Of a stretch of DNA of 64,000 bases, positions 23,623-63,352 are shown piece after piece. This DNA comes from Paraspadella gotoi (taxonomy: Eukaryota > Animalia > Chaetognatha). Position 1 is the stretch's first letter. Every line of letters starts with the position of its first letter. The DNA lies in the NCBI GenBank assembly GCA_051294375.1, contig CM119265.1, positions 9,370,772 through 9,434,771 on the forward strand, given 5' to 3'. Below the pieces are notes generated by a model. The model was not told the origin of the DNA. It did not search any database and saw only the letters and a list, made by a program, of their open reading frames with translations. Position numbers and translations under genes: made by a program.

Positions 23623-23839
23623 TAGTTTTTCAATGGTTAAGTTGCGCGTTAAAATTTCATTGACGTGAGGCCTATTCACATTTCATCTGTTCGGTTTTAT
23701 TTCGTTCGTGAGTTAAAAATGGATCGAAAAAGATTTTCGTTTTGCCAGGGGAAACTAAATGTTCTACTGGTAAATCCTATTCGAATTTATATTTAGAACG
23801 ACTAATGTATAAAAGTGCAATAAGTTTATTCATGTCATA

Positions 23840-23982
23840 ATTAATGAATATATTTTGTCTTTAAACAAATTAGTTATTTTCAATTGAATAAAACTAACCA
23901 CGGAATGACTGAATTAATGAATATATTTTGTCTTTAAACAAATTAGTTATTTTCAATTGAATAAAACTAACCACGGAATGAC
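23840..23982. repeat. Tandem duplication of about 72 bp upstream of SARDH
   Basis: AATTAATGAATATATTTTGTC...CCACGGAATGAC occurs twice. Confidence 0.9.
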
Positions 23983-24504
23983 CGAACATAACCGGAGCAA
24001 ACCGGTTTGTTCCTGAAAAAATATCCGAGAAAGATATTGTCCGATATCTGGGAGTGAATAAACAAGACTGTATGAGATTCTTGATTGAAAGCTTGCAGGG
24101 ACCTGCTATGTCATTATCTTGTAAGAGTGATGGAGGCCTGAAACCACCAAAGCCTGTCCAAAGTCAGGGGCAAGATAGCTTGTTTATTAAATGAATGGAT
24201 AATTTTTATATTGGTTTACGAAAAGGATGTAGCATGTTTTTATTTTGCCAGACGGGATAAGGCCGCCTTGGGTGATTTTTTTTTTTTTTTAAAGAATGTA
24301 ACTATCATTAAATAAAAAAATTAATAATATAATATCTATAACTTTCATCATTTCATTAATCATTATATCAATAATTTATTTCGATTAAATCATTATTATA
24401 TTAATTTTATATTAGTATAAAATATAATTATCATTATAGTATTAAATCATTCTCTTCTGCTTCTTTATGCCGTTATTGTCGTCGTCATCGTCACGCTTTT
24501 TTTA

Positions 24505-43400: not shown

Positions 43401-45321
43401 CGAATTTTTCGTTTCGTCTCTAAAGATATTTATACGTAAATTTACGTATTTGCTTTCAAATTTGTTTACTTTTAGGAAAGCATTTTGCGGAAGTTACTCG
43501 ACTGACGGTTGCACTTTCCTGAGCGCTTGTCAGGACAATTATATTCGCGCCTACGATTGTCGCAACGGACATTTCAAGGAGTTCAAAAAGATTCAGGCTC
43601 GTGATGTGGGATGGTCCGTGCTGGACACCGCCTTCTCTCCCGATGGTGAGAATTTTTATAAAAACTATTAAGTTGTACGTTGTACGTTGTACGTAAACAA
43701 ACAATTCATTTTCCACCTCAAACAAATAACGCAACGAAATGAAAGAAAACTATTTTTATGTTACATTTTTTAAACGGTTAACATTTAGGTTAAGGGTGGT
43801 TAAGGATTAGGGGTAGTTGGGGATTAGTGGTGGTTAGGGATAAATGATAGGGAGGTTTCAAAATAAAATTTGTAATTAAGTTTTTCTACCCTTACCAATG
43901 GCAATGTCTTTTTTTTATTTTTCCGGTAGCTCTTAAGAATCGAAACACCGAAAAATCCCGGTAGTCAAATGTAAAAATAATCCTAAGATTTTATTGATCT
44001 TACACTTCTTAATCCGGTCAGGCCTGTATTTTATATACTCCTCCTGGTCGCCCTCTGTCCATATTTGCAACATCTACGGCGACAGTCCCACTCAGATCGC
44101 GCTCGACATGCGCCCGGGAGAGCATCGCTTTGCCTGTTTCTCCATTCGATTTTCTATGGACAACCGAGAAATTATGGCCGGCGCCAACGACGGCGCCATT
44201 TATATTTATGACCGGGAAGCCTCAATGCGGACGCTCTGCATTCACGTGAGTTGTGGTGACGTTGGATCTGCTGTTTAAATCTATTATGTTGAATCACATA
44301 TGTTCCACCCCCTCCGAAAATCTTGAACCTTGGATTCCGCTCTCGAAGGCTCACGAGGACGACGTCAACACTGTCTCCTTCGCTGACGCCACCTCGCAGA
44401 TACTTTTTAGCGGCGGAGACGATGGGCTCGTAAAAGTGTGGGACAGACGCATGCTCGATGACGAACGGGCCAAACCAGTCGGCGTCTTGACTGGACATAC
44501 AGATGGCGTGACGTTCGTAGACTCCAAGGTTAAGAGAGTGGTTGGGTTTTAGGACCTCTGTTCATTTTTGTTTGAAGTTAATATACCTGGATTATTCTCA
44601 TCGTCTCTTTTGTTTTTCGCCAGGGCGACGGACGCTACCTCATTTCCAACGGAAAAGACCAGTGCGTGAAACTGTGGGATATTCGCAGGTTCGGAACACA
44701 GGATGGGGTTGACCAAGTGAGGAAGGCAGTGTCTAAGCAGAACTGGGACTACCGATGGCAGCCTGTCCCTAAGAAAAACATGAAACGCGTCAAGATCAAC
44801 GGCGACGTTTCCGTCATGACCTATAGAGGTCACGGAGTCTTGAGCACGTTGATAAGGTGAGATTGAAGTGTGGAGAAAGTTTTGACTTCGATCAAATCGT
44901 TATGGTTAAATCCTCCAAGTTAAAATAGTTTTCAGTTTAATTTCAATGTTCGTTTTCAAATATTTCTTTTTCCCCTCGTAGGTGTTACTTTTCCCCGGAA
45001 TTCACGACAGGGCAGCGATTCATTTACTCTGGATGTTCCACGGGCCGCGTTGTTATTTGGGACATCCTGACGGGACGCATCGCGAAGCGGCTTCATTCCC
45101 ATCGCCAATGCGTCCGCGACGTCAGCTGGCATCCTTACGAAAACAAGATCGTCTCTACTTCGTGGGACGGCTCCCTCTGCCAGTGGGAGTACGCCGGCGA
45201 CGACGATGACGAAATTGTTGGGAATCGGGATAAGCCCGGTCGGGACAAGGGCAACAAGTACAGTCTAAGGAGCAGGGAAGGTTCAAATAGGAACGCCGTT
45301 CAAGTTCGCGTCATGTACTGA
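40442..45321 (+). CDS. DCAF11: DDB1- and CUL4-associated factor 11 (WDR23), WD40 protein, multi-exon
   Basis: KAFCGSYSTDG, ARDVGWSVLDTAFSPDG, YSSWS, HEDDVNTVSFAD, GHTDGVTFVDSKGDGRYLISNGKDQ, WDYRWQ, MTYRGHGVLSTLIRCYFSP, VRDVSWHPYE; start codon and N-terminal exons less certain. Confidence 0.9.
41040..41463. mobile_element. Tc1/mariner-type MITE
   Basis: TIR CAAGGTGACACACGA(A/C)AACCCGCC at both ends, flanked by TA. Confidence 0.85.
41538..41991. mobile_element. TA-flanked MITE carrying a nested solo LTR
   Basis: Perfect TIR CAGGGACTTCAATCTG / CAGATTGAAGTCCCTG; the same end recurs at 26005-26020. Confidence 0.8.
41731..41971 (+). mobile_element. Solo LTR of the TRIM family nested in a TIR element
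   Basis: Homologous to the LTR consensus, 5' end eroded, 9-nt deletion after GGTCGGAAGCC. Confidence 0.85.
41997..42162. mobile_element. Short inverted-repeat element with degenerate TTAGGG-like core
   Basis: AATTTTACTTTCGCCGACCG / CGGTCGGCGAAAGTAAAATT perfect 20-bp inverted repeat. Confidence 0.7.
43296..43424. mobile_element. Small hairpin MITE
   Basis: TTTAGAGATGAAACGAAAAATTCGTTGGAATAGCA mirrored at 43390-43424. Confidence 0.7.
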
Positions 45322-46105
45322 AACTCGTTCGCCTTTTCTCGGTTTCCCGTTCAGGCGGCGGCTTAATTTGGGATCGCGGTATTTAGAGGTCGCAGTATCC
45401 TGATGCTAATGATGAAGGTGTTAGCCTGTCGCTAAGCAACATTTGAATAACATGTATTGGCAGATATTTTAACCTTCATTGTTTTCGTTGCGCGTGCTCC
45501 CACCTACTGCGGGATTTCAATTCACTATCACTTGTTATCTGTGATCCTTATAGTTTATAGGCTCGTATTTGGCGAGCTCGCCACCTTTTCTGTTGTTTTA
45601 TGGTTCATCGAAACCCCCTTCAGTTATTTATGTATTATTATTAGCCTTATTACAATCCGTATTTTTGATTCACGTTTAGATGAGACGGCCGTTATTGTCT
45701 CAATCACTCAACTTTACCCCGGATCAAAATCCCGGCAATAGGATTTCGGATAATTCCGAATTCCCATGAACTTTAACATCCGTATCGCCCGTCCCCTTTC
45801 TTTTTATTATCATTAGATTAGTTGTTTTGATACGTCCAATATGTTCTCGATTGTATAATGAGGGAAATCCAGAATAAAAGCTTACCGATGGGTACTAATT
45901 TAGAAGTTTGCTCATTTATTTCCCAGATGCCTTGAATGAAAATTGTTGTTCAAGTTGTACAAAAATGGATGAAAACTTTGCATTACCCAAAATAAGTGGT
46001 ATCAGTCGAGACTTGGCGATGACCGACAGAAACACGTGAGCGGTCGCCACAATCCTCGATATCTAATTGACTTCCGTCTCTCCGTCCTTGGCGTTCGTTT
46101 TTCGA

Positions 46106-49100
46106 ATGTATCGTCCCTCGCCCCATGAAGTCGTTGGGTTCCCGCCACCTCCTTGCCGTCCGTCCAGCATTCCCGCGTCCCGCCTCGCCTTTCCGGCTCG
46201 CCCCGGGTTCCGCGCGGGGCGTAAAAAGGTCCCATACGTGGCCCCGCCCCGGGCAATGGGACGCGAGAGCGAAGGAGAGTGGGTAAACGTTCGCGGCGAC
46301 GCCGACATCGGCGCTGATGGCGGCGGCAGAGCGGAAGAAACGGCGGTGAAAGAGATGGAGCCGACTAAGGACGCCGCCGTGGAGTTTGTGAAGAGCATGG
46401 AAAAGTGCCTGAAGGTATTTTTCCTGCGGTTTGTATCGTAATTAAGTTTTTTTTTATCTCGCCAGACGGGCTTAAAAGTGTGATATCATCGGAAGCTAAA
46501 AATTTAGATATGGCTTCTCATCATCGAGATCTTTGAAATGGTCATGTTCCATATCAATACTCGGATTTGTTTGTTTTATTTACAAAACAATACTACAAAT
46601 TACATTTTGTTTCTCTCTTTTTCTCCGTCGCTGTTTCTTATTCGTCTAAAAACGAGGTCAGCTCTGCAGCGGCTGGAGTTCTCTCTCTCATTCATACACG
46701 CATTTGTTTGTTTTATTTACAATGAATGACTATCATCGCGTCAATGAATGACTATCATCGCGTCAATGAATGACTATCATCGCGTCAATGAATGACTATC
46801 ATCGCGTCAATGAATGACTATCATCGCGTCAATGAATGACTATCATCACGTCAATGAATGACTATCATCGCGTCAATGAATGACTATCATCGCATCAGTG
46901 AATGAACTATCATTGAATAAATAATTGGTTATCATCTTGTCAATAATCAATTATTATTACATTAATAATCTATTATTATTACATTAATAATCTATTATTA
47001 TTACATTAATAATCTATTATTATTACATTAATAATCTATTACTATTACATTAATAATCTATTACTATTACATTAATAATCTATTACTATTACATCAATCA
47101 TTCGTTTTTTTTTCCGGATTTTTTAATTTTTTTTCTTTGATAGTAGCGAGATCAATATATTTTTGAGATTTGTTTTTATTTTGATTTTGCTTCCACTTCA
47201 AAGGATTTCTACGTCTTCTTCGGCGAAAGCGATTCGGAAGAGTCGGACTTCTCGGGATTCGACGACGAAGAAGTTGATCGTTCAGAGAGAGACGCCGACG
47301 ACTCCTACGTCAAAACCCTCGACGACGTCACCGTCGAAATCGATAAGCAGCGACGCGGCGAACTTGATGAAGACGAACACTATGAAGAATCTCCATCCGA
47401 GCTGCCCAAAGGCGACCGCGTCCAAAAGAACGCTTCTCGGTCCCACGATCACATACCACGCACGCTCGGTCGTGACACTTCCGTTCGTTCCTCCAAACAA
47501 TCCAAGTTCTCGAAGCGACCTTCTCCAGCCCTCATATCGACAACCTCGACCAAGCGGCGTTGCTCCGATCGTCACGCTTGTCTCGACGAGCAGTCGGCAT
47601 CTTCCGACAGTCGTCGCTCGGATCGGCTCGCGGGGGCCACGCCCGTCGCAGATAGAGACGACGCGCCGACTTCAAGAAAGAAAAGGGTTTCCGGAGCAAA
47701 TACGATGCTGGACGCTAAAATGTCTCCAACCGCTCGGACTGATTTTCCGCCGACGACGCCAGTCGCTCCCTTCCGCGGCCGATTGAAGAGCAGAACGACT
47801 TCCGTTTCTAGTGACTCGGCGCCGGATTCCTCGGAGGCCACCCCCGCTCGCACCGGCGACTCCGCCGCGTCCACCGAAAGCCCGGCGCCGCTTTCTTCCC
47901 CGGGCACGCCGCTTATTGTTAGCGGAAAGCGGGAGAGAAAACCCTCGATGAAGATAAAGATGATCGCTGCCGACCACACCGGACGAGCTGCTGGAGAGAA
48001 GATGAAGAAGTTAGGAAAGATGAACGAGTGCCACGGCTCAGGTGGTCATAAAGCGATGACCAATGGGTTTAAGAAATTGTCAACCGAAGAATCAATTTTT
48101 AAGCCCGCTGGGAAAAGACCAAAGATGGAGCCTGTTGACGAGAATACGCTTTTAGGCGTGGCTGAATCTGCTGGACCTCTGCCGCAAACAGCTGAAGACC
48201 CTTCCGAAATGTCCGACGTTCTCGATTCAATCAATGACCTAAGTAGCAAATTCTCGGAAGTCGTCGTTGGCAGACTGAAGAGCGTTTTGGCCGCCAATGC
48301 TTACCCCAACGCGTCGGAACGAGCCGATTTAGCGGCGGAGTTGGGCTTGCAGCCTAAGCAGGTTCGAAAACGGAAATTTCTGAAATCTCGAGACAAGGAA
48401 GAAACGAGTTTGTCTTATAGTGTTGCAAATTACTTATTTCAGGTCAAAAATTGGTTCGAACGTCAACGCAAGAAACTAAAGAAAATATCCCCAGATTTGG
48501 TTCTGGCCAGTTCCCCCCAACCTCACAAGCCAAAAAGCGAGCGACGCCCCTCCATGTCTCCGCCCTTGAAAGCCTCGACGACCGACTCCAATGATTTTCC
48601 GGACGACGACGACGACGCGTTAGGCGAGTTGAAAATCGATCTCGACGCTCTGCCCGACGAAGAGGGCGTGGACGAAACTTATCAATCTCTCTTGAAACTC
48701 CCATCCCGCCCGCCTCCTTCGCCCGTCGGCCTCTCTGACAATCGAATACTTCCAAGTGCCTCCGCCTCGTCCCCGGCCGTCGTCAAGAAGAAAAGGGGCG
48801 AGTTGTTCCCGCGTCCCGCGTTGATAAAACTGTGGGAGATGCTTATTCGTCACAAGGATCATCCTTTCCCTTCGCTCGAAGAAAAACAGCGCGTGGCCAA
48901 AGAGGCGGGGCTTGCCCTCAATCAAGTCTCCAAGTGGGTATTCTTCGCGCGGCAGAGAAAATATCTCCAGATGCACGACAGGATCGAAGGCTTGGAGAAT
49001 TTTATAGAAAAGAAATATTTCAGGTAGGTTTTTGAAAACGCGAGAAAGTCTTCGACAGAACCATATATCAAGGCTCAAGTTAGTTCCTTTAACCCCGGAA

Positions 49101-52100
49101 CTTCTTTTCTCTCTTTTCTATCTTCTGTCTTTCTATCTTTCTCTTTTATATATTTTTTTTCATATTTTCGTTTCAAAAGTCAATTTTTGCCAATTTTCAA
49201 AATTCCATCGCGATTTTCCATCTATGCTTCTTCTTTTTCCTCTTCCTCCTTTTTGCTTCTTTCTCATTGGAAATGAGCTACGTAGCCCAATGATTCTTTT
49301 TCTTTTTTTTCCTTGGATTTACGAAAATACGTGATTTAGATATTTCGTAGTACTTTTCTTTAGAAAGATGAAATTTATATAATGAAATGGTTACAAACAA
49401 TATAAAAATTTTCCATTCATTTAATAAATAAGCTATCTTGCCCCTGACTTTGGACAGGCTTTGGTGGTTTAAGGCCTACATCACTCTTACAAGATAAAAA
49501 CAATCAAGACTTTCTCACAGTCTTGTTTATTCACTCCCAGAGAAACTGGCTTTCCGATCAATGAAGTGGTATTTTTACCGACAGACAGACTAACAGATCA
49601 TAAAGTGAGAGTCACGACTGTAGCCGTGTCTAAAAATATGTGTACTTAATACTTATCTAGAACCTGTCAAATATGTACTGACGGGAGTAAAAACGATTTT
49701 CATATGGTAGAAGAACCAGTATCAACCTCTGGTAAAAACTGGTTATTCATAGTAGGTTTCAAATTTTGAAAATATTTTTTTACAGTATGATTTTTTTCGT
49801 TTGTAACAGCCCAAGACAGCATATTCTATGCAACTGTAAACTCTATAGTAGAGAGTTAAATGATAGTCGGTTTTGAAGGTTGTGGCAACAACAACACGTG
49901 GCCTTACCAGATCAAGCGATCACTATACTTTTAAGATTTTTTAAAGCTGTACTGATTCACTGTATTCATTTGTAAAGTGATAGTACGCTTGAGAAACTCT
50001 GTATAATATAGCATATATGCAATGAGTCTTCTTTATTTGGTGACTGATTATTAAGAGGTTGTCGAGTTTGAAACTTTGATTCAATTTTTCAATTTGTGAT
50101 TATTAAAAAGTAGTTAAAATATAACAAAAAATAATTTATAAAATTAAATAAAATTTTTTTGAGGACGAGAAGTTAACATCCCTCCTAACTGCAAGGCTTA
50201 ACTGCTAGAAACCGGGACCTTTGGGTTGGGAGGCGAAGGCCTTACCTCCTGCACCAATGGCCACTGATGAACAGTTGGTGGATCTTAGTCCACCATAATA
50301 TATATATATATATATAAAATTGAAACATTCTTTGAAACATTATACCACTTCATTGATAGGGAAGCCAGGTACTCTGGGATTGAATAAACATGACTGTGAG
50401 AGTGTCGTGATTGAAAGCTTGCAGGGATGTGCTATGTCATTATTTTGTAAGAGTGATGGAGGCCTTAAACCACCAAAGCCTGTCCAAAGTCAGGGGCAAG
50501 ATAGCTTGTTTATTAAATTAATGGATAATTTTTATATTGGTTGTACCAATTTTATATTCATAAATGCCCGACGACGAGCTACAAAATGATCCACAATTTA
50601 GATCTCTTGGGTGAATGGATTCTGAGATATCTTCACTGGAAATGTTACAAACAAGAAAAATCATACTGTATTATCCATAAATTTTCAATTAATAAATCAT
50701 CTTCCAGGAAAGCCTCGACCACTCCTAATTTACGCGTTCGCAAATCTAAATCCGTCCCTTTACCCGCGATGGTGGAGAAGAGACTCCGGCCAGAATCGAC
50801 GAGCGTGCTGAAAACTTGGCTCCTCTACCGCAAAGACAGTCCGATCCCTAGTCACGACGAACTGTCTACCATCGCTTCCAAAGCCGAAGTTCCTCTTCAC
50901 GAACTAGAAACCTGGTTCAAGATGCGCTACGAGGACGGCTGGACGGGCGACTTCGACGTCGTCAGGCTCAGCTCCTTCCAAGACCTCGACCGAAAAGAAG
51001 AGCCCGCGAAGAGGAGTGTCGTAAAAAGCAAAGTTTGTTATTGAGTAATTTGGTTGATTGCTCTCCGTTAATTAATTCCAATGCTCTTTCGTCTGTGTTA
51101 AGGAGCAACGGGTCAAAAAATTAAGATTGAGAAGAGCGCAGGGCGACGTTCTCCGCTCGTGGCTCTACCGGAACCGCGCCCATCCCGAACTCACTGAAGA
51201 CGACTTTCGCGAGTTAGAGGCGGCCACGTCGTTGAACGCCGACGAGATCCAGAGATGGGTCGACTTCGCCGTCAAAAAAGGAGTTCCTCGTCGACTCACC
51301 ACCGTCTGGAAGAAAAAAGGAGAGGCTTTCACGGACAGGGTCAGTGATAAAGTTTTTATTTTCGAATCCTTGATTAAATAATAAATATGTTACGATGTTA
51401 TTCATTTTTCTATCCATAGTTTTTACCAGCCAAATCCGTGAATATCCTCAAAAGATATTTGCTTCGAAATCCGCATGTCATTCAACCAAATTGGGAAGAC
51501 AAGCAAAAGCTGTGGAAGAAGACGGGTTTGACAATGAAACAGGCGAGTAATAGCAAACTCTGCTATTAGGAATGAACGCTCCATTTTTTACGACGAACAT
51601 TTTTTTTAAATGATTTTTCAGATTCAGATATGGTTCGCAAAAGCGAATCAGCGGGACTTGCGGTCGCGCATCTTCGCCCAACGCGCGGTGTCGGGGATCA
51701 AGAGGCTCGAATGGGAGGACGAAGAGGATCCTCCGACGGAGGACGAGAGTCGGTCGGAGATCGTCGTTGAGTCGGGAGAGTCCAAGTCGAAGGTGACTGA
51801 GGTTAGTTAGTAGGTTAAGAGGGAGTCGTTTTGTTAGTGTTTTAAACATAGAATTATTAGAACCATTCCCATTGAACATTGTAATCTTATATTCGATTTC
51901 GTTCGCTCTTTCACAGATCTCCCGTCGCCCCGTCTCCATCCGATCTCCGCGCTTCTGTTTCTCAGACGACGACGTTGCTTCCATCTCCTTAACTTCGACC
52001 TCTTCATCGTCTTCTTCTCTCATTCCTGCTTCGGCCTCTCGCCACCTCCTCCTCTCCCTTTACCGTCGTCGAACTCACCCTTTCGTCGACGCGAGGGAGA

Positions 52101-54766
52101 AGCTCCGCCTCTCCCGCGTCACCAACCTTCCTCCACGCCGAATTCTCCGATGGTTCCAGGAGGCGCGCGCCAAAAAGTGGGCCCGGAAGTTGAGATTGAC
52201 GCTGAAAGATGGAGTCGTCGTCGCCGCGGAAGAAGACGGTGGCGTCGGTGACAAGACGGCGACGAAAAAGAAACGCGACGATGTGGACGAAGCGATCGAA
52301 GACGCCATTTCTCTCATTCCGACGTTGCGTACGGCCGTCGCTAAACTAACGCCCAAATCTCCCGACGTAAGCAGTGACGCGGGTGGCGTGACCGCCGACG
52401 ATGTGCTTGAAGAAGACCTCGACCTCAGCTCGTCTTCCTGTTCGTCGAATCGCTCCAACGATGCCTTAGATAAGAACGACCTAGCGATGTTGCAAAACGG
52501 ATCTCTGACTGGAGCGTTGAGGACCGCGATGCGGACCAACGGAGATCACGGCGGCGTCGGCGGCGAAGGTGGCGAAGCGGAAGATGAAGAGTTTGTGGAG
52601 GAGGCTGACGATGACAACGACGACGCCTTCGAAACCGATTCGCCTTCCCTTTATCCGCCGCCAGAATATTTTCACTCCGTCGTCCCTCAGACGGACGGCA
52701 TCACAGAGGATCAGCTTGTCCGTCTCTCGATGATGCTCTTTAACCACAGGGGAGAGGCCTTCCCTGATCCATCCGCGAAGGAGTTGGAGGAGGCGTCGGC
52801 GGAGACAGGATTGAAAGAGGAGTTCGTGAGAGACTGGTTCGAGAAGTGTGTCTCTGACGGCATTCACGCCAACATGGAGAGGTGAGGAAGGAAGATAGAA
52901 ATTCAATAGAGATGAGTCTTGAAATGTTGAGAAAATAATGAAACTAATTCTATTGTTTTCCTTTGTTTTGTTTTTCAGCGTCAGTAATAAAAATTTGCGA
53001 CTTCCACCTCGCGATTTGGACCGCAACTCAAACCGAACGGCGCCCTTGCCAGTGGTGCCACATCGTCGTGCTCGTTACCCCGTCCATGTCACCAACGCCC
53101 TTAAAACATTTCTGCTCGAGCGACGAGTGCTTTTCCCCACGGCGGCAGACCTCCTCGCCCTCACGTCGACCACGGGACTGTCGACGAAGCGATTGCGAAA
53201 CTGGTTTGGACAGGCGCGAAGCAAGCATCTCCTACACCAGCTCATCGCCGAGAAATGGAAACCAGAAGACGACGATGGAGGCGAGGGGATCGCCGGAGGG
53301 AAAGATCTCAGTTTTGTCGACGACGGTGGCGACAGCATCGGCGGTAACGGCGATGATGCTCCCTTTTCTCCCAGCTCCGTCGACGACAAAACTACGAGCC
53401 GGTCAAAACGGGTCATCAAGCCGGCAAAGCGCTTCATCGAAGAGCACGAAGCTATGCTGTCCAGCGCCAAAGCGAAGCGGCGCGATTCGACGCCTTCCTT
53501 TGTGACGGAGGAGACGGGCACCAACAACAACGACAAAGAGACGAGGTTGACGCTGGAAGAGATTCAGGAGAGGGTGCTTAATTTGCCCAATTCGTTGCAA
53601 GGTAGGTTAATACATCGTAGTATGGCAACAGCCGGGTTGCCTGTGATGCCCATTGGGATGGGGCATCTCACTGTTGGCTCTGGGGGCTTCCGACCCTCAG
53701 TGACGCCTCCAGTCACTGGCGCGGTTACCCTAGGACGGTCTCGCTTTGCCAACGCAGAGGGAAGTCGTTAGGACTGTGGATGGAACACTACGCCTGGGAT
53801 GGTGTGTTCCCCCTCTGAGCCAATGGATTTGGCTGACGGATGGTGGACGTGAGGCGGTGTGAATATACCACCACAGGATCCCCGGGCCAAGACATCACTC
53901 AGGTTCCTCAAGCCTGAGAGGTGTCTGACAAAACTGTTACCATAGTGGGAGAGAGAGAGAGAGCGCGAGTTGTGGGGGCATAGGCGTTTGTCGTAGCGTA
54001 CCCCAGGGGCATAGGCGTTTGTCGTAGCGTACCCAAAGTCGGCAGGGCATAGGCGTTTGTCGTAGCGTACCCTGAGAAGGTTGCGTGTTCGATAGTAGGG
54101 CTCACCACTTATGGCAACAGCCGGGTTGCCTGTGATGCCCATTGGGATGGGGCATCTCACTGTTGGCTTTGGGGGCTTCCGACCCTCAGTGACGCCTCCA
54201 GTCACTGGCGCGGTTACCCTAGGACGGTCTCGCTTTGCCAACGCAGAGGGAAGTCGTTAGGACTGTGGATGGAACACTACGCCTGGGATGGTGTGTTCCC
54301 CTCTGAGCCAATGGATTTGGCTGACGGATGGTGGACGTGAGGCGGTGTGAATATACCGCCACAGTAGCCAAATTTAATGCTGTTAACGTGGTGTATGTTA
54401 AGGTTGTTAAAACTTACCTTTTTTAAAATTTTCTTTCGTTATTTTTCTTTCTTTCATCTTTGTTTCGTCCTTATTTTTTAATCGGATCAGCTTATCAGCA
54501 CATCCCGACTCTATAATTCACTTTGTCGGTCCGCCCCCTCAATCTTGTCGGGCATTCACTTATATCATGTCAGAACATCGAATTATGATAAATTATCTGT
54601 AATTCCATTCAGAAAAACAAATTTTTGATTTTCACAATGAATTTATTTAATTATGAGCAGACATCTTTCGAACATTGTTCTGTTCTTCATCAGTGCAATA
54701 TTTCAGTTTGAATTACAAAATTTTGGTAAGTTAAAAGTGAGAGAGGAAGAGGGAGACAGAGAGTGA

Positions 54767-54803
<37 letters not shown>

Positions 54804-57800
54804 TCAGAGAGATAAAAGAAACTGTAATATTGCACTGATAAAGAACAGAACAATATTCAAAACATGTCTGCTAATAACTAAATAAATTCGTTTTTCTAAA
54901 TTTTTACCAACGAAACGAAACGAAAACCAACAAAATGTAATAAGGTCTGAAGAATTCGACGATGATAACCATTATTCATTGTAAGAACACATTCCTAATT
55001 TATTCATTTTCTTTCCACACTCCCCATTCTCAATTTCCTCAGTGATGTTTTCCTTCCGCCAACACGATATCCTCTGCGAATGGCTCCACGCCCACCAACG
55101 TCATCCTGTCCCTTCCGAGTCTCAGCGACGCCAACTCTCTCGTTCGACTTCGCTTCCTCCGTCTCAGGTTGCTAATTGGCTAACCCACGCTCGGCGACGG
55201 ATCCTGGCGGACGACGGCGCCGATGGAGACGCGCCACCCCAAGCATCGTCCCCCGCGAGGGACACAGCGCTTCCGGGCGCCAACCTTTTGGTCACACAGC
55301 CTTCCAAACAAAATTGCGACGTCTGCGAATCCGAGTGGAAACTTTTGGGTGAGTTTTCTCTTTTCCAAAAGTCATCCTAAGTAACAATCAGTTTTGTCAA
55401 TAAATGATATTAAAGTGATACTATCTTTGTTGGAGAACAATACCTATTGAGAAAATTCCTATCAAATGTCCTGAATCTTTAATTCTCTCATAAATCTGTG
55501 TTCTCAATTCAACAATGGAAAGCCTGAGTTTATTGTTCTTTCGGCTTTCCCGCTTTTCGGTCTTTTTCTGAATTCTTTTGAGAGAGAGCAGAGAGAGAGA
55601 GAGAGAGAGAGAAATCGCACAATCCAATGATAAATTGAGGGTTATTTGTTAAGGGAGAACCAAAAATAAAGCGAATTCTGTTATACTTTGTTTGGTATGT
55701 TAAAAATAAACCTAAAATTTCGCCAAGTTCGAAAAATCCTTAGTTTCAAAGCCAAAGACCGTCATTACGAGAACATAAATAAATTTTAATTCATGTCGTA
55801 GGTAGTTGTGGAGCACTCGAACAAAAAAATTATTTGAATGATCGAACAAGGATATTTAAATGTAAGATAGTATAATTAATTAGTATAAAAAATATTTTGT
55901 TTATATTATTTCGGGAACAGAAATTTTAAAAATATATATATATTTTTTAAAAATTTTAATAAAGATTGGAATTTTTTATAAAAAGTCGATTTAAATATAC
56001 ATATATATTTTTTTGTAATAAAAACATATATGTTAAATGTTTGTCATTTTTTGCAATCTAAACATTAAAATATCATATAATATATTTTATAAAAGTTTTT
56101 AAATCAAAATCTGTTTTTAAAAATAAAAAAAAATTTAAATGATTTAAAATTTGTTCATTACATATCCATAAGCAGCAAAAAAAAATGTTTAATCGCTCAA
56201 TCTTTTCATCACTCCACCCTAGTATGTAGCTTAATAGTTTAATACATTGAAAATGGTGACATAATTATAAAAAATTGCGTCAGCGGGGAATCGAACCCCG
56301 ATCAACTGCTTGGAAGGCAACTATGCTAACCATTACACCACTGACGCCCCTTCTTGAGAAGATAGTTAAAGTCACGTTTTGATCCATTCTCTTCTGCTCT
56401 CCACCTCGAAACGCACGGCTGCTGCTTTTGTACGGCGCCTCGCAGCCGTTCTCGTTCAGCCGCAGCAGCCGTCGCCCCTGCGGTCGCAGCGGATATTCAC
56501 AACAAAAGTCGACACTGCCTTATTTGTAGCTGCTCTTTCTCTTTCCTCTTTGCGAAGTGACGGTAGAGCGAACCACGCGTCGGTGGTGGCGGCGGTGCGC
56601 TGAATGTCGAAGCTTCGAATTCGAAATCGAGCCGTTTTGTGTCAGAGGCTGTGAATGAATGAGGGCGTTTGGATTTCGAAGAACCCAACGAACGAAAGAA
56701 AGAGAACGAGAGAGAGAGAGAGAGAGAAAAAAAAACCACGCATATTATAATCTCTTCGGAATGAGTTATCATGCTGGCGGGCGAGCTGCACATTATCTCC
56801 TGTCACTCCTTCGATACGTAAGACTCTCTGAATTTTTCCTCCCAGCGATATTTTTTCGGTGTCTGTTTTTTTCCGGAATAGTCGCGATTGGAAAACTAAG
56901 AAAAGAACGGAAAAAAAATCGAAAAATAATGTTTATAATATATTTTTAAGTAAACATGATTTTTTTTACAATCGATCTAAAAATAAGAATTTATTTATTA
57001 AGTAGGTTATCTTGCTTTCCTAAATGTAATCCATGCTACAAATATTATAATGTCGTGTGGTGCTGTACTAATATAATACAATACACGTTACATATTAGTG
57101 ACTAACTTTATAATATATTTTTCCTTTGAACCTCTTCAAAACTGAATTAATTTAAAAAAATATTAAATTTAAATCCAAAATCCCATCCGCGCGTTCCGCC
57201 CGCTCCACGTGATTCGGTCTTTGTCTCGTTTCGATCATTGACGACTTAGAATCTCTTTTCCCCCACGCGCGTCCATCTTTATTTTTCTTCTTCGCTTCCA
57301 AGGTTACGCGTCCGACGAGGGCGCCGGCGCGACGATATGCGAGTCTTGCAAGATCTTCTACCAGACGGCGATGAGCCGAGGTCTCGTCTTCGAATGCGTC
57401 GACGGCGGACTCGGCTGCGGTCGCGTGGGAAAGGCGCTGCTCGACTGCGAGGCCTGTCGCCTCCTCTCCTGTCAGGACGTTTTGAGGTAAGAATGAACGG
57501 TAGGGGTTGGGAAGAAGTAGCTAACTTTAACTTGTTACAACTATGCCAACTATGGTCATCTCATTAAATAGAATCAAGCCCCGCGTCCGTCCACCAAAGA
57601 CAACCGCCACTGGCCGCTCCTTCGCCAACGGCGGTGGCGACGCCCCTAGTCCCCGGATCGGAAGCAACGACGTCGAGGCTTCCCCGCAACGCAAGGGACC
57701 CAGAATTAAATACGTGTGTCGCAAGGCGGCGCTCGCTCAAAGTCAGTGCCATTTCGTTTTACAGTTGTGGCAGTTCCGACATTTGTCACTCCGATCCATC

Positions 57801-59163
57801 ACTATTTTCTGCTTTACTTCTCCTCCAGGTCAAGGAGTACCGGCGCTATTTCCCACTAACGCCGCCTCGCCCTCTCACCCGTCTTTGCCGACGCCGCCTC
57901 CCCGGTTCAATGGCGACGACGCCGGAGTTCCGACCGGAAGTGACGCCGACGTCAACGCCAACCAAAGCGTTGTGAGAAAGGGTCCGAGGTGAGTCTGGTT
58001 GACGCAATAAAACTGTATTTTTATTGATATATTGAATATTTGTAATTATTCTTTCTCCTCAGAATAAAACACGTTTGTCGCAAAGCGGCGGTTGCTCTTG
58101 GACAAGGAAAGCCCGCACTTTTCGGCCAGGCCGGTTCGATCCTCAGCCCCCGGATGTCGTTACGTGACGACGACGAGGAAGAGGAGGAAGAAGAAGAGGA
58201 GGATCGAGCGCCCATGTCGCCCGCCGGACGGGGAAAAGGAAAAAATCTCTACGTCGCCTCTCCCGTCGCCGGGGTCGAAGGGTGAGACCTTATCTTTGGC
58301 TTTTCTCAAAGAGATAATAATAAAGATTTGGGTCGAAGCTCGACTGCAGATAGTTTTCAATTCCCGATCGAAACACTTCAGTTGATGTTGTTTAAAGGGA
58401 TTATATTCTACGTGCGTTTTCGATTTGTTATCGAGAAATCATTCGAACACTGTTTTTTGTATTTGATTTATAATTACTTTCGGTTTTTTTAATTTGAAAC
58501 GATGTCCCGAACTACCCATTCGAGGTCGCACTACGAATCACTCGACGCTCCGGACCGCGGAGACGCGACGCGCGCGGATTCGACGCGGAGTCTCGACGGC
58601 GCCTCGCGCGAGAAGGAGTTCCGGTTGTCGGCTCTCCCGGTCGAGGAAAAGGAGAGGCTTTACGAGGTCAGGAAAGCTTTCTTACGTTTTAATTCTTGTT
58701 TAATTTAATACCCGATGTAGTTGAAATATTTTTGATTCGCTTCCAGGCGGAAAAGTCCCTCGATCCCGACCCTGACGACCTCCCGATCGAAGAGTTGATC
58801 GAGCGCGCCGAAGCCATCGCGACAGGAAGCTTCGTCGTCGACGTCGCTTTGGACGGCGCCCCACGACACGCCTCCGGAAAGGGAGTGGGCACCGGTGGGA
58901 AAGGAAAAGGCGCGTCGGGTGGAAAAGGCACCGGAAATCGCCACGGCGCCGGAGGATTAGGAAAAAGTTCTTTCTCGGCTGGGAAGGACAAAGAACGGCG
59001 TCGGAAAGTGCGGTGCAAAGTCTGCAAAGGATGCACCTCGGAGGACTGCGATGCCTGCGTATATTGCATGGACAAACCAAAGAATGGGGGCTTCAATACC
59101 ATCCGTCAGGCCTGCGTCAAGCGGCGCTGCCTTAATCCCCAATATTCGACCGCTTACGATTGA
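46106..59163 (+). CDS. MLL/trithorax (KMT2A/B)-related protein, N-terminal half only: menin-binding motif, LEDGF-binding FxGF motif, about nine homeodomains, C4 zinc finger, two RIKHVCR motifs, CXXC finger
   Basis: FPARPG in exon 1; FFGESDSEESDFSGFDDEE from 47204; helix-3 WF/WL/WV homeodomain motifs between 48240 and 55205; CDVC...CESC...C...C...CEAC...C; GPRIKHVCRKAAVALG; LSALPVEEKERL; CKVCKGCTSEDCDACVYCMDKPKNGGFNTIRQACVKRRC then stop. Joining all exons into one gene is inferred from in-phase splice sites. Confidence 0.75.
46721..46912. repeat. Minisatellite, 22-bp unit AATGAATGACTATCATCGCGTC, about 8 copies
   Basis: Direct head-to-tail repeats with no spacers. Confidence 0.95.
46942..47095. 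repeat. Minisatellite, 22-bp unit ATTAATAATCTATTA(T/C)TATTAC, about 6-7 copies
   Basis: Direct head-to-tail repeats. Confidence 0.92.
50161..50262 (-). mobile_element. tRNA-derived SINE remnant
   Basis: Minus strand GGCCATTGGTGCAGGAGGTAAGGCCTTCGCCTCCCAACCCAAAGGTCCCGGTTTC resembles a tRNA D-arm, anticodon arm and start of the T-arm, but no acceptor stem. Confidence 0.45.
50374..50552. repeat. Dispersed ~180-bp repeat family (also 24048-24215, 49381-49541 inverted; fragments near 11375, 19072, 31287, 31893)
   Basis: Shared GTAAGAGTGATGGAGGCC...AAACCACCAAAGCCTGTCCAAAGTCAGGGGCAAGATAGCTTGTTTATTAAAT...ATTGGTTGTACCAATTT. Confidence 0.85.
53673..53753 (-). ncRNA. Twister ribozyme motif, type P5 (3' LTR copy)
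   Basis: Same core as 54162-54242, offset by 489 nt. Confidence 0.8.
54162..54242 (-). ncRNA. Twister ribozyme motif, type P5 permutation (5' LTR copy)
   Basis: GTTGGC(P5) AAA GCGA(P2) GA CCG(T1) TCCTAGGG(P1) T^AA CCGC(P2) GC(T2) CAGTGAC..GTCACTG(P3) AGGG TCGG AA GC CCC(P4/L4) CAAA GCCAAC(P5). Confidence 0.8.
54639..54890. repeat. Foldback element with a (GA)n core
   Basis: GAATTTATTTA...TGTTCTGTTCTTCATCAGTGCAATATT mirrored by AATATTGCACTGATAAGAACAGAACA...TAAATAAATTC. Confidence 0.7.
56276..56347 (-). tRNA. tRNA-Gly (TCC)
   Basis: GCGTCAGTGGTGTAATGGTTAGCATAGTTGCCTTCCAAGCAGTTGATCGGGGTTCGATTCCCCGCTGACGCA folds as a 72-nt cloverleaf, with a T6 Pol III terminator immediately downstream; intronic and antisense to the MLL-like gene. 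Confidence 0.96.
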
Positions 59164-60112
59164 CATTCGTAGATTGGGGAAAGATTGTGGTGCAAAGACG
59201 AGAGAGACAGAGATTGTCAATCTTCGTTTCATCATTTGTCATTTTCATTCTTTATTCTTAATTTTTTGTTTCAACTTTAGTTTTTTTGTTTTTTTTTTTT
59301 GGGGGGGGGGTAAGAGAGAAGTATTACTCGACGAGGTCTCGTCGTGAAAGTTTTATTATTAAATGGATTAATTCGAATCAGGGCTATCCTCTTCTTGTTA
59401 GTATAGGAAAAAGACTTTCATTATAACGCTACTTAAAATTGAGAACATTTAGGAAGTTATACACTTATCGTCATTTTTGTGTGCGAAACATTTTTATTTC
59501 AGTCTGTATTTTTTAGGCATTTCTTTTTATTAGCTATTTTTTTATTTTGCAAATATATTTTTTTTTAATTATAACTATGTATCCTATGCATTCATTCTTA
59601 TTCCTTTTTGTTAAGGCAAGCGGATAGTTCAGCACTTCTAATATGTTTAAGAATTTTTTTGTTTCGTTTTTTTTGTTTATTTAATCCTAATAAAAAATTT
59701 TTTCGCGACTCAAACATCAGAGCGAATCCCATTTGAATGTGGGCCCCACAATTAACTTAGATTCTCGATCTCATTTGTGATTCACTTTTCGCTTCCATTT
59801 TTTTTTTTTTTTTTTTTGATTTTATAACACCAAAATTAAAAAAAAAACTCAGTTTTAAGCGTTTAATTTTTTCTATCGGTAAAAGAAGGCCCAGCGCCGT
59901 CTTTTAAATTTCGATTGGTTTTTAAATTTTCTTCTCGGTTGTGAAATCGCCACCATTCTTGTGTACATGTATAAAGCAATTTTATTTTATGTTGTCAGGT
60001 GATATATATAAACAAGGTTTTGAAAATCCACTTTGAATAAATCGAGATTTTGGGACCAAAAACCAATATTTATAAAAAGCAAATACCAAAATACAACAAC
60101 AACCCAAAAAAA

Positions 60113-60864
60113 ATGTCTTGCCAAGCGTCTTCGGGAATGCGAGTTTCGGACGAGTGCGTCGCTCTGTTCGAATTGATGAAGAATAAGACGAAATACACGG
60201 CCGTCGTTTTTAAGTGAGTACGATATTCTTGGCGTTCTCTGGATAAGATTTTGATATTTAAATATTAATATTAAATTAAATTCGTTGATGAAGCAAAATT
60301 CAAACTTTTTCTAAATCTATAAACTCAACGAAAAAGAAAGGAATAATACAATGGCTACTGATATTTAAATATTAATATAAACGTATTTGTTCAGAATTAA
60401 CGACTGCAAAACGGAGATCGTGGTCGACCGCGTCTTCGATCCCATCGACGGCTGCGATGACGGAGATGATGAGTACAAACTCTTCTTCGATTACATGAAA
60501 GACATGGAGAACCAAGGACAGTGTCGCTACGCCGCCTACGACTTCAAGTGAGTAGAAGTTATGAAGTTTTTAATGTTGTAAGTCGACTTATACTTAGTTA
60601 TGCACTCTTATAACCTTTGTTACCTCCTCCCCCCCTCCCTCAAACAGATACACGATCAGCGACGGGTCGAGACGCAAAAAGCTCATCTTCATTAACTTTT
60701 GCCCGGACACTTGCACGGTCAAGCCCAAGATGCTGTACTCTTCTTCAAAAGATGCCCTCAAGGCCAGTCTCAGGGGCTGCATGCCCTTCCAGGCCAACGG
60801 GATCGAAGATTTGGAGAAGTGCGAGGTTGCCTGCAAGTGTAAAGAAAATACCACCTACGGTTGA
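60113..60864 (+). CDS. ADF/cofilin family actin-depolymerizing factor, three exons
   Basis: MSCQASSGMRVSDECVALFELMK...VVFK/INDCKTEIVVD...CRYAAYDFK/YT...KLIFINFCPDTCTVKPKMLYSSSKDALK. Confidence 0.9.
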
Positions 60865-62505
60865 AAAAAAAGTATTATGAGTATCGATCGGCCTCCTTTT
60901 TCTTACTCATTCTCTCCCCCCGTCCCTCATGGGGACGAACTTTCGCGGAAAGTCTCTGCGGGGAGGGAATGGGTAGGGGGGTTTTTCTAAATATCGATCG
61001 GCTTCTGAAAGTGTCTATACACGGCACTTCCCCCTCGCTTGCGTTATTTTAGAGAACAAAATGATTATCGTTACTATTATTATTATTATTATTATTTTCT
61101 GTATTCGCGTTCCCATCGTGTTTTTGGTTTCAGACTTTCCGTTTACTCTTTTTTTTTTTGAGATTTTTTTTTCAGACTTTCGGTTTTATAAGTAAATTAT
61201 CGCTTAGAACGCTTCCTTTTTTGTGTACACCAAAGTTTTATATTATTATTTAATTTTATAAAGATTCGACATTCCGTTTTTTTTTTAACCAAAAAAGTTC
61301 TTCCACTTATGTAATTTGTATTTTTTTTATTTTTTATTTTTGGTTCTAAGAATCATTTTTAATGCATTGGAGATTCGGTTTACGTAGGTGGGGGGTATAT
61401 GTGATTATTCGGTAAACCAAATATGCTAATGCCCAATAGTAAAAATAATTCCAATCCTTATTTTTTCCTTGCGTTCTCGTAATGGTTTGTTATGATAATT
61501 AAATAAAAAGATGCGTCCAAATTGAAATTTGTTCAATTCTCTTTATTTTTATTGCTGTCCTAATCTAGCCAGTTAGTCAGAAGTTTGTCAATAAGGTTAG
61601 AAAAATATAGTCACGTGTGTCATCATCATCAACGCAAGATGTGTAAACTAAGTATCATATCTTTCTCGCTGTTCACGATACAGCGTGTTTTGGACCGTAG
61701 ACCCAAATGGGCCAACTTCTCCATCGAATTATGAAAAAAATAACTTCTCAGTCACGATTTTCTTTGGTCTCAATTTTTTCCTCCCTTAACTCGGAATCTC
61801 CGTTCATTCATCCATTCACATTCGCGCCGTCCTCTTTCGATATAAACTTCATCATTCATGATCAACCTCTTTCTTTCTCTCTCCGCGCGACGCTGCCCCT
61901 TCGACGAGATGAGGAGCGGAGCGTCATCCAACGGGAGGAGGAAGCGGACCACGCGTCGTCGCCCCTCGATTCGTGTCACCGCCCGTCGCGCTCGTCAAAA
62001 AAAAAAAAAGAAAACTGATGGAGAAAGAAAGAATTTGAGGCGTAGGAAACTTGAGCTGCTTGAAATTTTTTTTTTTAAAAAAAGTGGAGGAAAAGCCATC
62101 GTCTAAAAAGTGGAAACTGTGCACGTTGCGCGGGATCGCGTGCGACGAATTGTCGCGTAGGCGCGCACATGCGACGTTGATAAGGATCGTCGCTTTTTTT
62201 TTCGTGCCCTAACCGAAGGGACATCTGCTCTTAAAATACATGGATTTCTGTCGTTGCAAGAACGGAACTCGGTGTCAACCAACTTCCCTTTTCGTGGGCA
62301 ATTTTTGCTTCGAAGCTTTGGCGCGATTTACGATTAGACCGACGAAAGGCGCGGTCTGGTTTGGTGACGTTTATTTTTAGGGGAACGTTCCTGAAAAAAT
62401 ATTTTTACATCTTGACTGACCAAACATCATTCTCGACATATCAGAATATGCATTAATTATCCTCTTCTAATTCAGAGGGGCTTACCGGACCTGAATTCAA
62501 AGCAT

Positions 62506-63258: not shown

Positions 63259-63352
63259 ATGGGGAACGACCGCGGTTGGATTCCCGCCTTCATCGCGCTC
63301 CTCTCGATTTTCGATCCTCTTGTCAACGCGGTTTACCTCGACGGAACCCTGG
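63259..63352 (+). CDS. Probable first coding exon (signal peptide) of a secreted or membrane protein continuing beyond the window
   Basis: MGNDRGWIPAFIALLSIFDPLVNAVYLDGTL followed by a consensus phase-1 donor G|GTAAGT. Confidence 0.45.

What the first reader, a model, noticed from the sequence alone, without database searches (positions are those of the whole stretch)
46106..59163. MLL/trithorax homolog that ends after CXXC, with no PHD, bromo, FYR or SET domains
Seen in MLL1 order: FPARPG (cf. MLL1 menin-binding RWRFPARP), FFGESDSEESDFSGFDDEE (cf. LEDGF-binding FGES...EQFLGF), a nuclear-receptor-like C4 finger (present in Drosophila Trx), GPRIKHVCRKAAVALG, LSALPVEEKERL (cf. LSALPWEEREK) and a CXXC finger, then YSTAYD-stop, AT-rich 3' sequence and the cofilin gene. 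Established: the menin/LEDGF-to-CXXC segment is the part retained in leukaemic MLL fusions. Inference: a natural catalytic-less targeting half, either a split trithorax gene or a paralog recruiting menin/LEDGF without H3K4 methylation.
Basis: partly seen in the sequence, partly recalled or inferred. Interest (0 to 1): 0.82.

Follow-up and report, generated by a model that had tools for sequence, protein, structure and literature searches.

The report
Truncated trithorax carrying nine homeodomains
An invertebrate animal expresses a trithorax/MLL1-type gene that stops right after its CpG-binding finger, so it lacks the histone-methylating half, and that carries nine inserted TALE-like homeodomains not seen in any relative examined; it likely acts as a non-catalytic chromatin-tethering scaffold.

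Summary
Observation confirmed and extended. 46106-59163 is one open 16-exon frame of 2032 aa. It holds the KMT2A/B (trithorax) N-terminal motifs: menin- and LEDGF-binding motifs, C4 finger, PRIKHVC, LSALP, CXXC (7 of 7 profiles hit, 0 of 200 shuffles each). Post-CXXC halves of 6 longer orthologues find nothing in the window. Spliced contigs of one probable RNA run read through the stop into at least 623 nt of unspliced 3' sequence, so the stop is real in the main transcript. None of 63 fetched KMT2A/B-type proteins has one. Truncation alone is less rare: similar short models are annotated in horseshoe crab, sea spider and scorpions, though some may be annotation breaks. Whether a PHD-SET half or a full-length paralogue exists elsewhere could not be tested (no genome). 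Best reading: a SET-less menin/LEDGF-recruiting scaffold, most likely from gene fission; function is inferred.

The parts
46106..59163 (+). 16-exon gene, 2032 aa. Exons 46106-46414, 47204-48361, 48443-49023, 50708-51032, 51103-51339, 51420-51542, 51622-51801, 51917-52881, 52979-53601, 55043-55348, 57303-57486, 57572-57741, 57829-57988, 58063-58281, 58525-58666, 58747-59163
   Evidence: Open frame, 14 GT-AG and 1 GC-AG introns; spliced contigs of run X1
46175..46210 (+). Menin-binding-motif homologue (aa 24-35)
   Evidence: Profile E 1e-4, 0 of 200 shuffles; same motif at the start of named mollusc and chelicerate KMT2A/B
46388..47275 (+). LEDGF/IBD-binding-motif homologue (aa 95-127, spans intron 1): helix with two Phe four apart, then acidic FxGF
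   Evidence: Profile E 3e-8; alignment by eye; consensus in PMC8022399
47909..47962 (+). Conserved RKPS basic motif (aa 339-356)
   Evidence: Profile E 8e-11
48230..48490 (+). HD1, 60-residue type homeodomain, phase-0 intron after codon 44
   Evidence: Pfam Homeodomain; leave-one-out 30.0 bits
48785..48973 (+). HD2, TALE-like
   Evidence: Pfam Homeobox_KN; model pLDDT 78; best fold match Exd, Z 10.4, rmsd 1.2, 58 aligned, tied within 1 Z with MATalpha2, CRX, Meis2
50763..50951 (+). HD3, TALE-like, no Pfam homeodomain hit
   Evidence: Leave-one-out 27.6 bits; low-confidence model (pLDDT 52) whose top Foldseek rows are PBX1/Exd/TGIF1 at E about 0.1-0.2
51106..51294 (+). HD4, TALE-like
   Evidence: Pfam KN E 0.031, below cut-off; leave-one-out 40.6 bits
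51322..51669 (+). HD5, TALE-like, spans exons 5-7; GC-AG phase-0 intron after codon 44, same position as in HD1
   Evidence: Leave-one-out 36.6 bits; RNA joints
52001..52189 (+). HD6, TALE-like
   Evidence: Pfam; 39.3 bits
52685..52873 (+). HD7, TALE-like
   Evidence: Second Pfam stretch of exon 8; 24.6 bits
53052..53240 (+). HD8, TALE-like
   Evidence: Pfam KN E 2e-4, below cut-off; 37.9 bits
53397..53444 (+). Conserved RFIEE motif (aa 1433-1448), out of its usual order
   Evidence: Profile E 4.5e-9; order
53586..55215 (+). HD9, TALE-like (nearly all in exon 10)
   Evidence: Pfam KN 46.5 bits; 43.8 bits
55315..57475 (+). Nuclear-receptor-like C4 zinc finger (aa 1592-1660, spans intron 10)
   Evidence: Pfam zf-C4; PDB; aligned to 7 invertebrate homologues
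57693..58105 (+). Two copies of the PRIK(H/Y)VC motif (aa 1705-1722, 1771-1788)
   Evidence: Profile E 2e-9 and 6e-14
58616..58660 (+). LSALP motif (aa 1878-1892)
   Evidence: Profile E 3e-7
58993..59136 (+). CXXC finger, eight Cys, IRQ tripeptide kept, KNGG in place of KFGG
   Evidence: Pfam; PDB best KMT2A 44 bits, KDM2A 41.5; PMC3685328
59164..59786 (+). Transcribed, unspliced 3' sequence after the stop (at least this far); AATAAA at 59689, ATTAAA at 59358 and 59835
   Evidence: Record 4 of run X1, depth 84
60114..60864 (+). Cofilin gene, next gene downstream on the same strand (boundary marker)
   Evidence: Pfam Cofilin_ADF; spliced joints at depth 822

Best explanation
This is an expressed trithorax/KMT2A-B N-terminal gene that ends after its CXXC finger and carries nine homeodomains, and it likely works as a non-catalytic chromatin tether that would bind menin and a LEDGF-type reader at its N-terminus and unmethylated CpG DNA at its C-terminus. 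Shown: gene model, transcript, stop, motif homology, homeodomain fold, absence of PHD/bromo/FYR/SET in the window. Inferred: menin and IBD binding (motifs match); CpG binding (IRQ tripeptide kept; window CpG o/e 1.31 suggests little CpG methylation, so CXXC alone would give little selectivity). Inferred: the homeodomains, all lacking Asn51, act as a multivalent DNA-backbone/nucleosome or protein-contact array rather than classical TAAT/TGAC readers, adding the avidity that PHD3 supplies in full-length MLL1. Origin, inferred: a TALE homeobox entered the low-complexity N-terminal region and was duplicated long ago (13-30% pairwise identity; two units share an intron position), and the gene was cut between CXXC and PHD1. 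I put about 0.4 on fission with the PHD-SET half encoded elsewhere, 0.3 on a paralogue beside a full-length gene, 0.2 on loss of the SET half, 0.1 on a longer isoform.
For: Open 2032-aa frame. Run X1: record 2 covers exon 2 and, by length, exons 1 and 3; record 3 is shown over exons 4-9, and its 3409 nt end at 58195 if the model is followed, 30 nt into record 4, which starts at 58166, the overlap expected of adjacent 31-mer graph nodes; record 4 joins exons 14-16 and runs unspliced to 59786. Depths 64, 81, 84. Motifs 7 of 7. Homeodomains: 9 of 9 leave-one-out 24.6-48.8 bits, 0 of 500 shuffles each; profile best PKNOX1 E 4e-17, Meis1/2, TGIF. Asn51 absent in 9 of 9, Trp48 kept in 9, Arg53 in 5, Asn present in the solved TALE domains. 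P0002, an unnamed 133-aa relative at 69% identity, also ends a few residues after the finger and has KNGG. Fission precedents: Lpt/Trr in planarian and fly (PMC6128892), possible two-ORF Trx in Parhyale (bioRxiv 10.1101/2022.03.27.485719).
Against: No binding was tested. One run only, kept as contigs, its RNA status a tool guess (it is spliced); 45 joints were not shown, so a minor longer isoform is not excluded. The exon 3-4 junction is not bridged by any displayed record. The IBM2-like motif has Ser at one acidic consensus position. KFGG is KNGG (40 of 44 references KFGG). A cut between CXXC and PHD1 leaves FYRN and FYRC both on the other half, so no known interface would rejoin the halves; in MLL1 both CXXC and PHD regions were needed for HoxA9 recruitment (PMC6647185). 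P0002 comes from contigs of at most 749 nt, so its end may be a contig end. No relative with the homeodomain array was found, so conservation of the array is unshown.
Confidence: 0.55

Rival explanations
1. A duplicate beside an intact full-length trithorax: the short protein competes for menin/LEDGF and CpG sites and acts as a decoy or repressor, the CXXC region of MLL1 being a known repression domain.
For: Short MBM-to-CXXC models occur in Tachypleus and, without CXXC, in two Centruroides genomes, while spiders have long forms. Long branch of the query. MLL CXXC region binds BMI-1, HPC2, CtBP, HDAC1 (PMC6647185 passages). Gain of nine domains fits a freed copy.
Against: No second copy is known for this animal; no genome to search. 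The query does not group with the chelicerate short forms (weak).
Confidence: 0.3
2. The only trithorax remnant: the PHD-SET half was lost, H3K4 methylation is left to Set1 and Trr, and the N-terminal half became a stand-alone transcription factor.
For: Nothing of the C-terminal half in 64 kb. The C-terminus is neat (6-8 residues after the finger) and a relative appears to end alike.
Against: SET-bearing KMT2A/B is kept in the molluscs, spider and annelids examined or reported. Absence from a window says nothing of the genome.
Confidence: 0.2
3. The homeodomains are sequence-specific readers with altered specificity, making this a self-targeting trithorax.
For: Fold and hydrophobic core kept; Arg53 in 5 of 9; HD3-5 are closely spaced (72-91 aa); Gln or His at position 51 in HD8 and HD9.
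Against: Asn51 lost in 9 of 9; helix-3 residues differ in every unit. That Asn51 makes the key adenine contact is recalled; my paper search for it returned nothing.
Confidence: 0.25
4. A short isoform of a longer gene whose PHD-SET exons lie beyond the window, with cofilin nested in an intron.
For: Contigs drop rare forms and 45 joints were hidden. Short database models of fish KMT2B are plainly fragments of longer genes (2 of 4 fish tails match a full-length one), so truncated models can mislead.
Against: Main contig reads through the stop for 623 nt or more; no consensus donor between 58747 and the stop in a simple pattern scan; cofilin lies on the same strand; CXXC-to-PHD1 is only 164-321 aa in 6 references and no such exon lies in the next 4.8 kb; this gene's introns are at most 2 kb.
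Confidence: 0.08
5. Two adjacent genes, broken at intron 3: one with MBM, IBM, HD1-2 and one with HD3-9, C4 and CXXC.
For: Records 2 and 3 end and begin at this junction and no bridging record is displayed; the unspliced frame stops at 49027.
Against: Canonical GT-AG, frame kept; record 3 starts exactly on the three bases shared by exon 3's end and the acceptor, with no own 5' leader; the only contig laid at 49022 is an intron-entering variant of depth 3.5 that explains the graph break; similar depths. Even if true, each piece would still join trithorax motifs to homeodomains.
Confidence: 0.05

Closest known systems
Invertebrate KMT2A/B-trithorax (Haliotis XP_046572748.1, Argiope KAF8774197.1, Sinanodonta KAL3885750.1, Argopecten XP_069115617.1) and vertebrate KMT2A/KMT2B
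   Same: MBM, IBM, RKPS, RFIEE, C4 finger (invertebrates), PRIKHVC, LSALP and CXXC
   Different: No PHD, bromo, FYR or SET; nine homeodomains; MBM-to-PRIK span 1744 aa against 477-1216 in 34 references; RKPS before RFIEE, reversed in 8 of 8 references holding both; KNGG
Short annotated trithorax N-halves: Tachypleus XP_076305289.1 (1273 aa), Nymphon KAG1664681-3 (976-1034 aa), Centruroides XP_067129301.1 / XP_023210131.1 (995 aa, no CXXC), mite C4+CXXC proteins, unnamed P0141 (716 aa)
   Same: End after CXXC or earlier, no PHD/SET by Pfam; Tachypleus also doubles the PRIK motif
   Different: No homeodomains; not verified as real ends (the Tachypleus tail ends in a stretch that by eye resembles the pre-PHD1 motif); do not group with the query
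MLL1 moiety (1 to about 1400) of leukaemic fusion proteins (PMC8022399, passages)
   Same: Break falls between CXXC and PHD1; keeps menin, LEDGF and CXXC modules
   Different: No fusion partner at the C-terminus, no AT-hook core, extra C4 finger and homeodomains inside
Split COMPASS-like genes: Lpt plus Trr (MLL3/4) in fly and planarian (PMC6128892, passages); possible two-ORF Trx of Parhyale (bioRxiv 10.1101/2022.03.27.485719, passages)
   Same: A SET-less N-terminal gene product of a KMT2 gene
   Different: Lpt is MLL3/4 and PHD-rich; the Parhyale break lies between FYRN and FYRC; here it is between CXXC and PHD1 and the partner half is not shown
TALE homeodomain proteins (PKNOX, Meis, TGIF); two-homeodomain spiralian TALE-IV genes (PMC6118893, passages); multi-homeodomain ZHX, ZFHX, DUX
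   Same: Fold, three-residue loop extension in eight units, best profile matches
   Different: Nine copies, none with Asn51, embedded in a trithorax protein; PMC6118893 reports two as the first multi-homeobox state in TALE genes

Membership tests
KMT2A/B-trithorax (by descent) | N-terminal menin-binding motif | tested here: met
   Profile E 1e-4, 0 of 200 shuffles
KMT2A/B-trithorax (by descent) | LEDGF/IBD-binding motifs (Phe pair, acidic FxGF) | tested here: met
   Profile E 3e-8; one acidic consensus position is Ser
KMT2A/B-trithorax (by descent) | PRIKHVC and LSALP motifs before a type-1 CXXC finger | tested here: met
   eight Cys and IRQ kept, KFGG is KNGG
KMT2A/B-trithorax (by descent) | CXXC domain groups with KMT2A/B in a tree | tested here: inconclusive
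   245-domain tree: query with P0002 (0.91), four unlabelled short proteins (0.87), then four mollusc KMT2A/B (0.84); KMT2A/B not one clade
KMT2A/B-trithorax (by descent) | C4 nuclear-receptor-like finger (invertebrate members) | tested here: met
KMT2A/B as an H3K4 methyltransferase | PHD1-4, bromodomain, FYRN, FYRC, SET in the same protein | tested here: not met
   0 of 6 post-CXXC halves hit the window; transcript reads through the stop
KMT2A (vertebrate type) | AT-hooks | tested here: not met
   No GRP core by pattern; most invertebrate references lack them too
KMT2A/B | Binds menin, LEDGF and unmethylated CpG | not testable with these tools
   No partner sequence from this animal; bench test needed
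Split KMT2 gene (Lpt/Trr type) | Complementary C-terminal half encoded as a separate gene and no full-length copy | not testable with these tools
   No genome held
TALE homeodomain | Three-helix fold with three extra residues between helices 1 and 2 | tested here: met
   HD2-HD9; HD1 lacks the extension
TALE homeodomain transcription factor | Recognition helix with Asn51 | tested here: not met
   0 of 9 against Asn in PKNOX1 and Meis

The most novel reading that the evidence does not exclude
In this lineage trithorax was cut at the same CXXC/PHD boundary as in MLL leukaemias and rebuilt: the N-terminal half captured a TALE homeobox, amplified it ninefold, and now works as a free, self-targeting menin/LEDGF scaffold that replaces full-length trithorax, either rejoining a separate PHD-SET protein through a new interface or working with no methyltransferase at all.
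Probability: 0.35. Interest if true: 0.9.

Novelty: new variant of a known kind. Interest (0 to 1): 0.8.

Why it matters
How MLL1/trithorax finds its target genes, and how much of its work needs the SET domain, are open questions (PMC6647185, passages). Here evolution appears to have made the separation: an expressed, intact targeting half without the enzyme, cut where leukaemic translocations cut. The nine homeodomains are an architecture I found in none of 63 fetched relatives nor in ten paper searches, and the one paper seen on multi-homeobox TALE genes reports two domains as exceptional. If the animal has no full-length copy, it is a natural test of SET-independent trithorax function and of targeting by an in-built DNA-contact array.

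Tried and rejected
Whole genome not held, so no search for a PHD-SET gene. Run search listed no holder on record as RNA; one guessed-RNA run held 0.56 of the words, two others none; only X1 was laid, over 44900-61900. Word-index protein searches with the CXXC exon (243-2000 aa) and exon 3 (106-338 aa) found nothing; the Tachypleus region (700-2228 aa) gave 43 proteins, none with a homeodomain. Two metagenome scans found no locus. Atlas searches gave only homeodomain clusters at 0.75-0.80, leads at best. PDB searches with exon 1 and the start of exon 2 did not find the MLL1 peptides; the PRDM16 and CBC1 hits were set aside as unexplained weak matches. Earlier scan notes: nothing on this genome or gene; eight unrelated notes. 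Taxon not resolved: a 365-column tree of 24 proteins leaves the query on a long branch outside molluscs (96), chelicerates (92) and vertebrates, with no annelid, echinoderm or other references. Considered and rejected: assembly chimera (no N in the region; RNA links homeodomains to trithorax motifs at both ends); recent DNA duplication of the units (at most 43% DNA identity); foreign origin by GC3 (0.62, 0.65, 0.67); homeodomains replacing AT-hooks (most invertebrate references lack AT-hooks too); KDM2/CFP1/DNMT1 identity (flanking motifs are KMT2A/B). No complex prediction was run: no partner sequence was at hand. Paper searches listed no description of a homeodomain-bearing or CXXC-terminated trithorax; the library lacks most subscription papers, and the Parhyale preprint's supplement was not seen.


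Full report
Gene model. Reading the sequence and fixing splice sites by hand gives 16 exons from 46106 to 59163, 6099 nt, one open frame of 2032 aa, with 14 GT-AG introns and one GC-AG intron. The window's only N run lies at 9765-9774. Neighbours are animal genes by my reading of the frames (names recalled, only cofilin tested). No genome is held.

Transcript. One run, X1, holds 0.56 of the sampled words; its RNA status is the tool's guess. Laid on 44900-61900 its contigs are spliced. Record 2 (2143 nt, depth 64) is shown over exon 2; its other 582 and 403 letters fit exon 3 and exon 1 plus leader. Record 3 (3409 nt, depth 81) is shown over exons 4, 5, 6, 8 and 9 up to 53599; following my model it ends at 58195, and record 4 begins at 58166, a 30-nt overlap inside a purine repeat, as expected for adjacent 31-mer graph nodes (an arithmetic check, the middle pieces were not displayed). 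Record 4 (1332 nt, depth 84) joins exons 14-15-16 and runs unspliced from 58745 to 59786, 623 nt past the stop; its last 35 letters would fall in a T run. Limits: one study, contigs only, 15 of 60 joints shown, and no displayed record bridges exons 3 and 4.

Trithorax identity. A phmmer scan of 1.84 billion representatives with the last exon returned 150 listed proteins, among them long proteins named from Haliotis, Sinanodonta, Argopecten, Stegodyphus and Argiope; Haliotis and Argiope carry PHD, FYRN, FYRC and SET by Pfam. They share the query's menin-type motif, the acidic FxGF motif, two basic motifs, the C4 finger, PRIKHVC, LSALP and CXXC. Profiles made without the query hit 7 of 7 blocks, E 1e-4 to 1e-23, 0 of 200 shuffles each. 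The CXXC finger alone is less decisive: KMT2A 44 bits against KDM2A 41.5 in the PDB, and an unresolved tree, although the seven best pairwise scores after P0002 are KMT2A/B. It keeps eight Cys and the IRQ tripeptide that contacts CpG in CFP1; KFGG, not a base contact, is KNGG (PMC3685328, passages; 40 of 44 references KFGG).

Truncation. The post-CXXC halves of six longer references give no tblastn hit in the 64 kb at E<=0.05; all six N-terminal halves hit. In six references PHD1 follows CXXC within 164-321 aa. The next gene, cofilin, is on the same strand. P0002, an unnamed 133-aa protein 69% identical to the last exon, also has KNGG and ends a few residues after the finger, but comes from contigs of at most 749 nt. 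Truncation is not unique: short models are annotated in Tachypleus (two isoforms), Nymphon (three), two Centruroides species, three mites (C4 plus CXXC, no menin motif found) and unnamed P0141. These are unverified; 2 of 4 short fish models tested are clear fragments, while the tails long enough to test of the short arthropod-type models matched no long reference, a weak test in a poorly conserved region.

Pfam finds homeodomains above cut-off in the exon 2-3 frame, exon 8 and exon 10, and below cut-off in exons 5 and 9. Anchoring on the helix-3 Trp gives nine units at aa 446-1558; each scores 24.6-48.8 bits against a profile of the other eight, 0 of 500 shuffles reaching it, and a full profile finds nine and no more (my anchoring favours the real units somewhat). 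The profile's best solved matches are PKNOX1 (E 4e-17), Meis1/2 and TGIF. HD2 folds as three helices (pLDDT 78), best match Exd, Z 10.4, rmsd 1.2, 58 aligned, with other homeodomains tied. HD3, without a Pfam hit, gives a weak model whose top rows are TALE domains. HD1 lacks the three-residue extension. Units are 13-30% identical, so the array is old; HD1 and HD5 have a phase-0 intron after codon 44, which suggests a genomic, intron-bearing donor. None keeps Asn51; five keep Arg53. Of 243 fetched proteins, 63 carry a KMT2A/B motif and none has a homeodomain; the three with one lack those motifs, two of them from protists. The menin-motif-to-PRIK span is 1744 aa against 477-1216 in 34 references. 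The RKPS motif precedes the RFIEE motif, the reverse of 8 of 8 references with both, so the history was more than a plain insertion; this is unexplained.

Mechanism. In MLL1 the first 1400 residues find chromatin through menin-LEDGF, AT-hooks and CXXC (PMC8022399), and stable binding seems to need CXXC together with PHD3 (PMC6647185, passages). This protein has lost PHD3 and has no AT-hook core, and the window's CpG o/e of 1.31 suggests a genome with little CpG methylation, where CXXC would select little. I infer that the homeodomain array and C4 finger supply the missing avidity, as a multivalent non-specific or protein-mediated contact rather than classical base reading, and that the protein tethers menin, an IBD-PWWP reader and CXXC-region partners without methylating H3K4 itself. 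None of these steps was tested. For origin I favour fission (about 0.4) over paralogue (0.3), loss of the SET half (0.2) and longer isoform (0.1); fission has precedents in Lpt/Trr (PMC6128892, passages) and perhaps Parhyale Trx (bioRxiv 10.1101/2022.03.27.485719, passages; supplement not seen), but a cut here leaves no known rejoining surface.

Novelty. Ten paper searches (listings and abstract starts) showed no homeodomain-bearing or CXXC-terminated trithorax; PMC12153100 and PMC4928265 (passages) added nothing on it. PMC6118893 (passages) calls two homeodomains the first multi-homeobox state among TALE genes. The taxon is unresolved and no relative with the array was found, so it rests on one genome and one transcriptome. 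Verdict: real, expressed, a new variant of trithorax; not to be filed as an H3K4 methyltransferase; interest 0.8.

Noticed in passing
window 56276-56347 (-): tRNA-Gly(TCC) gene inside intron 10, on the opposite strand, splitting the C4 finger's exons.
   Followed up: partly
window 53619-53900 and 54110-54364; further copies near 14240, 31957-32540, 33556, 38545, 41732, 62513: A dispersed repeat of about 250-280 bp, 10 blastn rows in the window at 77-100% identity; two direct copies in intron 9 flank a 31-bp tandem repeat; summed contig depth there is 13,650-24,187. Looks like a SINE or MITE family; no Rfam match at gathering score.
   Followed up: partly
window 48362-48442 and 57742-57828: Introns 2 (81 nt) and 12 (87 nt) are in frame and free of stops; retention of intron 2 would put 27 residues into helix 3 of HD1. 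Contig lengths fit the spliced forms.
   Followed up: partly
window 51543-51621: GC-AG intron at the same homeodomain position as intron 2, supported by an RNA joint.
   Followed up: yes
window 46720-47098: Two adjacent 22-bp minisatellites (8.8 and 7.1 copies, 97% matches) in intron 1.
   Followed up: no
whole window: CpG observed/expected 1.31 (1.01-1.54 in 4-kb bins), unusually high for an animal; suggests little CpG methylation.
   Followed up: partly
proteins P0072, P0085, P0098 (unnamed): Proteins that by eye have a KDM4-like Jumonji region joined to a C-terminal CXXC with K(P)RNGG/KNGG, an unusual pairing; not run through Pfam.
   Followed up: no
proteins P0011 (Ancoracysta), P0062 (Thalassiosira), P0128 (unnamed): A single homeodomain together with CXXC (and PHD in the first two) outside the KMT2A/B set: homeodomain-CXXC coupling has arisen elsewhere.
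   Followed up: partly
proteins P0092, P0181, P0217 (mites), P0203, P0214 (scorpions), P0187 (sea spider), P0077 (horseshoe crab): Recurrent short trithorax N-terminal models across chelicerates; may mark a widespread, undescribed SET-less paralogue or repeated annotation breaks.
   Followed up: partly
window 63260-63331 (+): Start of a further same-strand frame with a signal-peptide-like hydrophobic stretch; no Pfam hit on these 24 aa.
   Followed up: no
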